A stretch of 64,000 nucleotides of DNA from Escherichia coli (lineage in GTDB: Bacteria; Pseudomonadota; Gammaproteobacteria; Enterobacterales; Enterobacteriaceae), in the NCBI RefSeq assembly GCF_003334305.1, contig NZ_QOWS01000003.1. One strand, given 5' to 3'. Shown piece after piece: positions 53,308 to 53,350 of this stretch. The position numbers were made by a program, and so were the translations under genes. The notes below the pieces were generated by a model, which had not been told where the DNA came from, did no database searches, and worked only from the letters and a program-made list of their open reading frames with translations. Position 1 is the stretch's first letter. Each line of letters begins with the position of its first letter.

Positions 53308-53350
53308 TTAATGAATTAAAATTCAATTTATATGGATGATTATTCATTTG
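53308..53350 (-). promoter_or_regulatory. tandem ARG boxes (ArgR operator) of argI
   Basis: AATGAATTAAAATTCAAT matches the 18-bp ARG-box consensus; a second weaker box follows 3 bp away; 25-65 bp upstream of the argI start. Confidence 0.8.

What the first reader, a model, noticed from the sequence alone, without database searches (positions are those of the whole stretch)
53308..53350. Canonical tandem ARG boxes immediately upstream of argI
AATGAATTAAAATTCAAT is a perfect 18-bp ARG box, followed by a second weaker box, within about 65 bp of the argI start. This is known ArgR regulation and shows that argI keeps its native control despite the AT-rich yjgL islet on its other flank.
Basis: partly seen in the sequence, partly recalled or inferred. 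Interest (0 to 1): 0.15.

Follow-up and report, generated by a model that had tools for sequence, protein, structure and literature searches.

The report
Known ArgR operator of E. coli argI
This is the textbook binding site of the arginine repressor in front of the E. coli ornithine carbamoyltransferase gene argI. It is base-for-base the same as in strain K-12, so it is real but ordinary.

Summary
Two 18-bp ARG boxes lie 3 bp apart at 53310-53348, which is 26 to 64 nt upstream of the argI start codon (argI = 52280-53284, minus strand). AATGAATTAAAATTCAAT matches the ARG-box consensus perfectly and is the only such match in 64 kb. TATGGATGATTATTCATT has 2 mismatches.

A weight matrix built from eight other K-12 ArgR operators, leaving out argI and argF, scores the pair at 36.9 bits. 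That is the best in the window, above all 200 random windows (maximum 25.9) and above every training operator.

The 39-bp operator is identical to E. coli K-12 MG1655. The whole 161-bp argI-rraB spacer differs from K-12 at one base, 53309, just outside the boxes. The operator sits at the same position in 21 other Escherichia, Citrobacter, Salmonella, Pseudocitrobacter and Intestinirhabdus loci. There, variation in the proximal box falls only at degenerate consensus positions.

The boxes cover the argI -35, spacer, -10 and expected start site, which fits repression by excluding RNA polymerase. They also cover the published core promoter of the divergent rraB gene.

This is already known and of low interest. 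The remark about yjgL has no bearing on control, because yjgL lies at the 3' end of argI.

The parts
53310..53327 (.). Promoter-proximal ARG box (box 2 in argI orientation: ATTGAATTTTAATTCATT). It is a perfect consensus match and overlaps the argI -10 and the expected transcription start.
   Evidence: 0 mismatches, unique in the window. (21.2 bits). (14 of 18 columns invariant in 22 sequences; variation only at consensus positions 2, 10, 17 and 18).
53328..53330 (.). 3-bp spacer (TAA in argI orientation). It gives 21 bp centre to centre, so both boxes lie on the same face of the helix.
   Evidence: Invariant in 22 sequences. The 3-bp spacing is the canonical design (PMC6640053).
53331..53348 (.). 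Distal, weaker ARG box (box 1 in argI orientation: AATGAATAATCATCCATA; 2 mismatches). It occupies the last base of the -35 and the whole 17-bp spacer.
   Evidence: (15.7 bits). (8 of 18 columns invariant; TG.AT...A..CA core kept). Position 53338 is the site of the published G4468182A mutation (PMC11417348); the window has the wild-type base.
53348..53353 (-). argI -35 hexamer TTGCAA.
   Evidence: TTGCAA-17-TAAATT. Shimada 2014, PMC3946193 (TTGCAA-15-TATAAA). 6 of 6 invariant across genera.
53325..53332 (-). argI -10 region. Two overlapping readings: TATAAA at 53332-53327 with 15-bp spacing, or TAAATT at 53330-53325 with 17-bp spacing.
   Evidence: and PMC3946193. Which hexamer is used is inference; no start-site data were available here.
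53290..53295 (-). argI Shine-Dalgarno sequence AGGAGG, ending 5 nt before the ATG.
   Evidence: Read from the sequence. The GAGG core is invariant in the alignment.
52280..53284 (-). argI coding sequence (ornithine carbamoyltransferase, 334 aa).
   Evidence: (NF009213, 754.5 bits, cut-off 559). (synteny with b4254).
53316..53343 (+). Published core promoter of the divergent rraB gene, TTAAAA-16-GATTAT. Its -35 lies inside box 2 and its -10 inside box 1.
   Evidence: only + strand candidate. PMC3946193 (same hexamers). PMC11417348 states that the ARG box overlaps the rraB -10.
53446..53862 (+). rraB coding sequence (RNase E inhibitor B), divergent neighbour of argI.
   Evidence: NF008393, 214 bits..

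Best explanation
The 39-bp stretch 53310-53348 is the ArgR operator of the E. coli argI promoter. When arginine is plentiful, one arginine-bound ArgR hexamer binds cooperatively to the two 18-bp imperfect palindromes. [quoted passage not shown] The distal box fills the space between the -35 (TTGCAA) and the -10. The proximal, perfect box covers the -10 and the expected start site. Bound ArgR therefore excludes RNA polymerase and shuts off ornithine carbamoyltransferase synthesis; when arginine falls, the repressor leaves and argI is transcribed. Shown here: the sequence, its statistical significance, its identity to the K-12 operator, its overlap with promoter hexamers and its conservation across genera. 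Taken from the literature: ArgR binding and repression. Inferred: the exact -10 hexamer and start site, and that the strain carries a working argR, which lies outside the window.
For: The proximal box is a unique perfect consensus match, with a second box at the canonical 3-bp spacing. The matrix from eight other K-12 operators gives 36.9 bits, the highest in the window, above 200 random windows and above every training operator. The operator is 39/39 identical to MG1655 and the 161-bp spacer is 160/161 identical. The locus is present in all 5426 complete E. coli genomes. The tandem sits at -64/-66 from the ATG in 21 loci of five genera. The proximal box has 14 of 18 invariant columns with changes only at degenerate positions, whereas the leader just downstream has 6 of 25 invariant. 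The K-12 paralogue argF carries a near-identical operator, 34/39, at -66. Promoter hexamers overlap the boxes (PMC3946193). Published statements support the design and mechanism: two 18-bp boxes 3 bp apart bound by one hexamer (PMC6640053; PMC6245113), steric exclusion of RNA polymerase (PMC4381063), and ArgR binding to the ARG box repressing argI (PMC11417348).
Against: Nothing in the data argues against it. There are three limits. No binding or expression measurement exists for this particular strain. The original footprinting papers (Charlier 1992, Cunin 1983, Maas 1994) are not in the held library, so the match to the published operator rests on identity to the K-12 genome rather than on the printed sequence. 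Part of the conservation could come from the two overlapping core promoters rather than from ArgR contacts.
Confidence: 0.97

Rival explanations
1. The operator is shared. ArgR bound at 53310-53348 represses both argI and the divergent rraB promoter, whose -35 and -10 lie inside the two boxes. This would tie the level of the RNase E inhibitor RraB to arginine supply. It extends the main explanation rather than replacing it.
For: The only + strand sigma-70 candidate, TTAAAA-16-GATTAT at 53316-53343, lies wholly within the boxes and is the rraB promoter listed by Shimada 2014. A point mutation at 53338 raised argI about 7-fold and rraB about 6-fold (PMC11417348).
Against: That mutation also changes the first base of the rraB -10, so the rraB effect need not involve ArgR. 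It arose in an evolved population carrying other mutations. No paper found here reports arginine- or ArgR-dependent rraB expression. The rraB start site was not verified.
Confidence: 0.35
2. The conserved AT-rich sequence is conserved only because it is the pair of overlapping core promoters for argI and rraB. Its resemblance to ARG boxes is incidental.
For: Every base of the 39 bp overlaps a -35, spacer or -10 of one of the two promoters. AT-rich promoter DNA produces weak ARG-like hits elsewhere in the window, for example 52123 (15.7 bits) and 54555.
Against: Promoter spacers are not normally sequence-constrained. Yet the dyad-symmetric TGAAT-N4-ATTCA of the proximal box is invariant in 22 sequences, and variation falls exactly on the degenerate consensus positions. 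The score exceeds all random windows. The same architecture recurs at eight unrelated arginine-regulon promoters. ArgR repression of argI is published.
Confidence: 0.02
3. The match is a chance hit in AT-rich intergenic DNA.
For: The spacer is AT-rich, and isolated 1-2-mismatch hits occur elsewhere in the window.
Against: None of 100 shuffles gave an exact match. None of 200 random windows reached the tandem score. The position is conserved across five genera.
Confidence: 0.005

Closest known systems
argI operator of Escherichia coli K-12 MG1655 (upstream of b4254; MG1655 4478337-4478375)
   Same: All 39 bases are identical. The distance to the argI ATG, the -35 TTGCAA and the divergent rraB neighbour are the same.
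   Different: There is one substitution 1 bp outside the proximal box: 53309 is T on the + strand here and C in K-12. The window's 59-bp allele is shared by 1008 of 5432 E. coli records. On the argI strand that base is A, and A also occupies this position in argF and in most of the other genera aligned.
argF operator of E. coli K-12 (paralogue in the CP4-6 region, b0273)
   Same: Tandem 18+3+18 at -66 from the ATG, also with 2+0 mismatches. 34 of 39 bases are identical, with the same TTGCAA -35.
   Different: Five substitutions: three in the right half of box 1, one at position 2 of box 2 and one at position 17 of box 2. The ORF that starts at the ATG inside box 1 is annotated as argL there. 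At argI it stops after 15 codons.
Other ArgR operators of the K-12 arginine regulon (argECBH, carAB P2, argA, argD, argG, argR, artJ, artPIQM)
   Same: Two imperfect 18-bp palindromes separated by 3 bp (2 bp at argR), overlapping or next to the promoter (PMC6640053, PMC6245113).
   Different: Those have 4-7 total mismatches to the consensus against 2 here, and lower matrix scores (27.4-35.2 bits even when self-included, against 36.9). argI and argF are thus the closest to consensus in the set.

Membership tests
E. coli-type ArgR operator (tandem ARG boxes) | Two 18-bp imperfect palindromes matching WNTGAATWWWWATTCANW | tested here: met
   0 and 2 mismatches. 21.2 and 15.7 bits with a matrix that excludes argI and argF.
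E. coli-type ArgR operator (tandem ARG boxes) | Boxes separated by 3 bp (rarely 2), giving a 39-bp site with both boxes on one helical face | tested here: met
   The spacer at 53328-53330 is 3 bp. It is invariant in 22 sequences. The design is as stated in PMC6640053, PMC6245113 and PMC4381063.
E. coli-type ArgR operator (tandem ARG boxes) | Overlap with the core promoter of a gene of arginine metabolism or transport | tested here: met
   The boxes cover the -35 edge, the spacer, the -10 and the expected start of argI (PMC3946193). The gene is ornithine carbamoyltransferase.
E. coli-type ArgR operator (tandem ARG boxes) | Evolutionary conservation that follows the contact positions of the motif | tested here: met
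   In 22 sequences from five genera, the proximal box varies only at consensus positions 2, 10, 17 and 18. The flanking leader is much more variable.
E. coli-type ArgR operator (tandem ARG boxes) | Arginine-dependent binding of hexameric ArgR and repression of transcription | not testable with these tools
   This rests on the literature for the identical K-12 sequence (PMC11417348; Charlier 1992 as cited in PMC6640053). No binding or expression data exist for this strain.
E. coli-type ArgR operator (tandem ARG boxes) | A functional argR gene in the same genome | not tested
   argR lies about 1.1 Mb away in MG1655 and outside the window. It was not looked up in the matching strains.
argI locus (as opposed to the argF paralogue) | Chromosomal context yjgL-argI-rraB-yjgM-yjgN-valS | tested here: met
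   PGAP labels the gene 'argF' generically, but the neighbours are those of b4254.

The most novel reading that the evidence does not exclude
The single ArgR operator may act on both face-to-face promoters. Arginine-bound ArgR would then also shut off rraB, linking arginine supply to control of RNase E activity. The sequence allows this, because both rraB hexamers lie inside the boxes, and one published mutant raised both transcripts. No direct test was found.
Probability: 0.3. Interest if true: 0.3.

Novelty: already known. Interest (0 to 1): 0.05.

Why it matters
The finding confirms that this window is ordinary E. coli core genome and that argI carries its standard arginine-responsive control. 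Nothing new follows from it. The only open point is whether the same operator also governs the divergent rraB promoter. That would be a modest addition to the ArgR regulon.

Tried and rejected
**Printed operator sequence.** I looked for it in the held papers. Full-text searches for the box strings found nothing. Maas 1994, Makarova 2001 and Cho 2012 are not held, and the supplements of Cho 2015 are not held. The comparison was therefore made against the K-12 genome itself.

**Built-in promoter scan.** It reported no promoter at its 9-of-12 threshold. A looser scan of my own (8 of 12) recovered the published hexamers.

**Rfam on 53150-53600.** The only hit was a vertebrate lncRNA family at 12.8 bits against a gathering score of 55, which is spurious.

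**Structured-RNA reading of the conserved block 53367-53420.** This block lies in the rraB leader. The consensus fold is only -4.55 kcal/mol and shows no convincing compensatory changes, so the reading was rejected.

**Small upstream ORF in the rraB direction.** An ORF starting at the ATG after GGTGGAGG was considered. It was rejected because Salmonella and Intestinirhabdus have ACG there.

**yjgL flank.** I considered whether it affects argI control. It is at the 3' end of argI and convergent with it, so it is irrelevant.

Full report
**What is there.**
The + strand at 53310-53327 reads AATGAATTAAAATTCAAT, followed by TTA and then TATGGATGATTATTCATT at 53331-53348. The first box matches the ARG-box consensus WNTGAATWWWWATTCANW with no mismatch. 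It is the only such match in the 64-kb window, and none of 100 dinucleotide-preserving shuffles produced one. The second box has two mismatches.

The gene downstream on the minus strand (52280-53284) is an ornithine carbamoyltransferase (NF009213, 754 bits). Its neighbours are yjgL, rraB, yjgM, yjgN and valS, as at b4254 in MG1655, so it is argI and not the paralogue argF. The boxes lie 26-64 nt upstream of the ATG.

**Is it more than chance?**
I recovered the tandem operators of eight other K-12 arginine-regulon promoters from the K-12 genome: argECBH, carAB, argA, argD, argG, argR, artJ and artP. From these I built a symmetrised 18-bp weight matrix, leaving out argI and argF.

- The tandem at 53310-53348 scores 36.9 bits (21.2 + 15.7).
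- It ranks first in the window.
- It exceeds the best tandem score in each of 200 Markov-1 random windows (maximum 25.9).
- It exceeds every training operator.
- By consensus count, argI and argF, with 2 mismatches in total, are the best operators of the set; the others have 4-7.

**Comparison with the reference strain and the species.**
The 161-bp argI-rraB spacer is identical to MG1655 except at 53309, one base outside the proximal box, so the operator is 39/39 identical. All 5426 complete E. coli genomes carry the stretch. Of 5432 records, 1008 are identical over 59 bp and 4242 are 95-99% identical, which is one or two differences over this length. In eight sampled E. coli alleles, most differences fall in the leader between the proximal box and the ribosome-binding site. 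The two changes inside the boxes are a W-to-W change and a change at a position that already mismatches.

**Conservation across genera.**
A degenerate DNA pattern for the ArgI N-terminus retrieved loci from Citrobacter, Salmonella, Pseudocitrobacter, Intestinirhabdus and other Escherichia species. Every one carries a tandem ARG pair at -64/-66 from the ATG (re-anchored on the canonical start codon), scoring 31-38 bits where a score was obtained.

| Region (22-sequence alignment) | Invariant columns |
|---|---|
| -35 TTGCAA | 6 of 6 |
| 3-bp spacer | 3 of 3 |
| Proximal box | 14 of 18 (variable only at consensus positions 2, 10, 17, 18) |
| Distal box | 8 of 18 (TG.AT...A..CA core kept) |
| Leader just downstream | 6 of 25 |

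This is the pattern expected for selection on repressor contacts.

**Mechanism.**
In argI orientation, the -35 TTGCAA is at 53353-53348. The distal box takes its last base and the whole 17-bp spacer. The -10 is either TAAATT (53330-53325) or TATAAA (53332-53327). The proximal box runs from inside the -10 across the expected start site (Shimada 2014, PMC3946193, lists TTGCAA-15-TATAAA for argI).

The published model is as follows. One arginine-bound ArgR hexamer binds cooperatively to two 18-bp boxes 3 bp apart, on one face of the helix, and represses by excluding RNA polymerase (PMC6245113; PMC6640053; PMC4381063). The anatomy here fits that model in every respect. ArgR binding itself is taken from the literature for the identical K-12 sequence and was not tested here.

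**The divergent promoter.**
The only sigma-70 candidate in the rraB direction, TTAAAA-16-GATTAT at 53316-53343, lies entirely inside the two boxes. It is the rraB promoter listed by Shimada 2014.

A 2024 paper (PMC11417348) describes a laboratory-evolved BW25113 mutation, G4468182A, in this 'ARG box'. It was associated with about 7-fold more argI mRNA and about 6-fold more rraB mRNA. I mapped that position to window 53338, using the BW25113 record. The window has the wild-type G there.

By the consensus and by my matrix, the mutation moves the distal box closer to the consensus: 2 mismatches become 1, and 15.5 bits become 17.4. The motif model therefore does not predict 'disruption' of ArgR binding, and a promoter effect is at least as likely. 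Whether ArgR also controls rraB remains open; I give it about 0.3.

**The yjgL remark.**
yjgL is AT-rich (29-37% GC against 52-56% for argI). In this strain it is broken into three ORFs and is annotated as frameshifted with an internal stop in an identical genome. It converges on the 3' end of argI, however, so it has no bearing on the promoter. The arrangement is the same in K-12.

**Verdict.**
This is the known argI operator, identical to that of K-12. Novelty: already known. Interest: low.

Noticed in passing
window 47806-47844: A second tandem ARG-like site, TTTGAATTATAAGTCAAA-ATG-CATGCATTTTTATTTGTT, scores 27.4 bits, above the best of 200 random windows (25.9). It lies in the yjgH-pyrL spacer, about -73 to -111 from the pyrBI start (TATAAT at 47746-47741). 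K-12 has a variant of it with five clustered differences. ArgR and PurR binding at the pyrL promoter was already reported from ChIP-chip data (Brooks 2014, PMC4299497; PurR in PMC3159470).
   Followed up: partly
window 53338 (BW25113 4468182): The published ciprofloxacin-adaptation 'ARG box' mutation G4468182A maps to position 11 of the distal box in argI orientation. It brings the box closer to the ARG consensus (15.5 to 17.4 bits; 2 mismatches to 1) and changes the first base of the rraB -10, GATTAT. Loss of ArgR binding, as stated in PMC11417348, is not what the motif predicts.
   Followed up: partly
window 53309: This is the only difference from MG1655 in the 161-bp argI-rraB spacer: T here and C in K-12, 1 bp outside the proximal box and in the argI leader. 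Only 1008 of 5432 E. coli records match the window exactly over the 59 bp tested. argF and most of the other genera aligned carry the window's base at this position. Natural variants like this probably account for much of the 'over 70% of clinical isolates carry mutations' figure in PMC11417348.
   Followed up: partly
window 53300-53347, minus strand: A 15-codon ORF (MNNHPYKLNFNSLRR) starts at the ATG inside the distal ARG box and stops at TAG 53302-53300. The equivalent ORF upstream of argF is annotated in K-12 as argL, a 'putative translational regulatory protein' (b4766). In E. albertii, E. whittamii and Escherichia sp. E1V33 it runs in frame into argI without a stop.
   Followed up: partly
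window 50619-52179: yjgL is a pseudogene here, split into ORFs of 324, 117 and 85 aa. It is annotated 'frameshifted; internal stop' in a genome identical to the window over 52100-53950, and spans 1590 bp there against 1815 bp in K-12. It is very AT-rich (29-37% GC).
   Followed up: partly
window about 53367-53420: Blocks of near-invariant sequence, GGTGGAGGCAA and TGTGACAATAAGAG on the + strand, lie in the presumed rraB 5' leader. They are conserved across five genera and also upstream of the argF paralogue. No RNA covariation was found, there is no Rfam family, and the ATG is not conserved in Salmonella. The function is unexplained.
   Followed up: partly
window 54400-55800: A second AT-rich stretch (31-41% GC) covers the yjgM-yjgN spacer and yjgN, on the other side of rraB and yjgM. 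Shimada 2014 marks the yjgM/yjgN spacer as H-NS associated.
   Followed up: no
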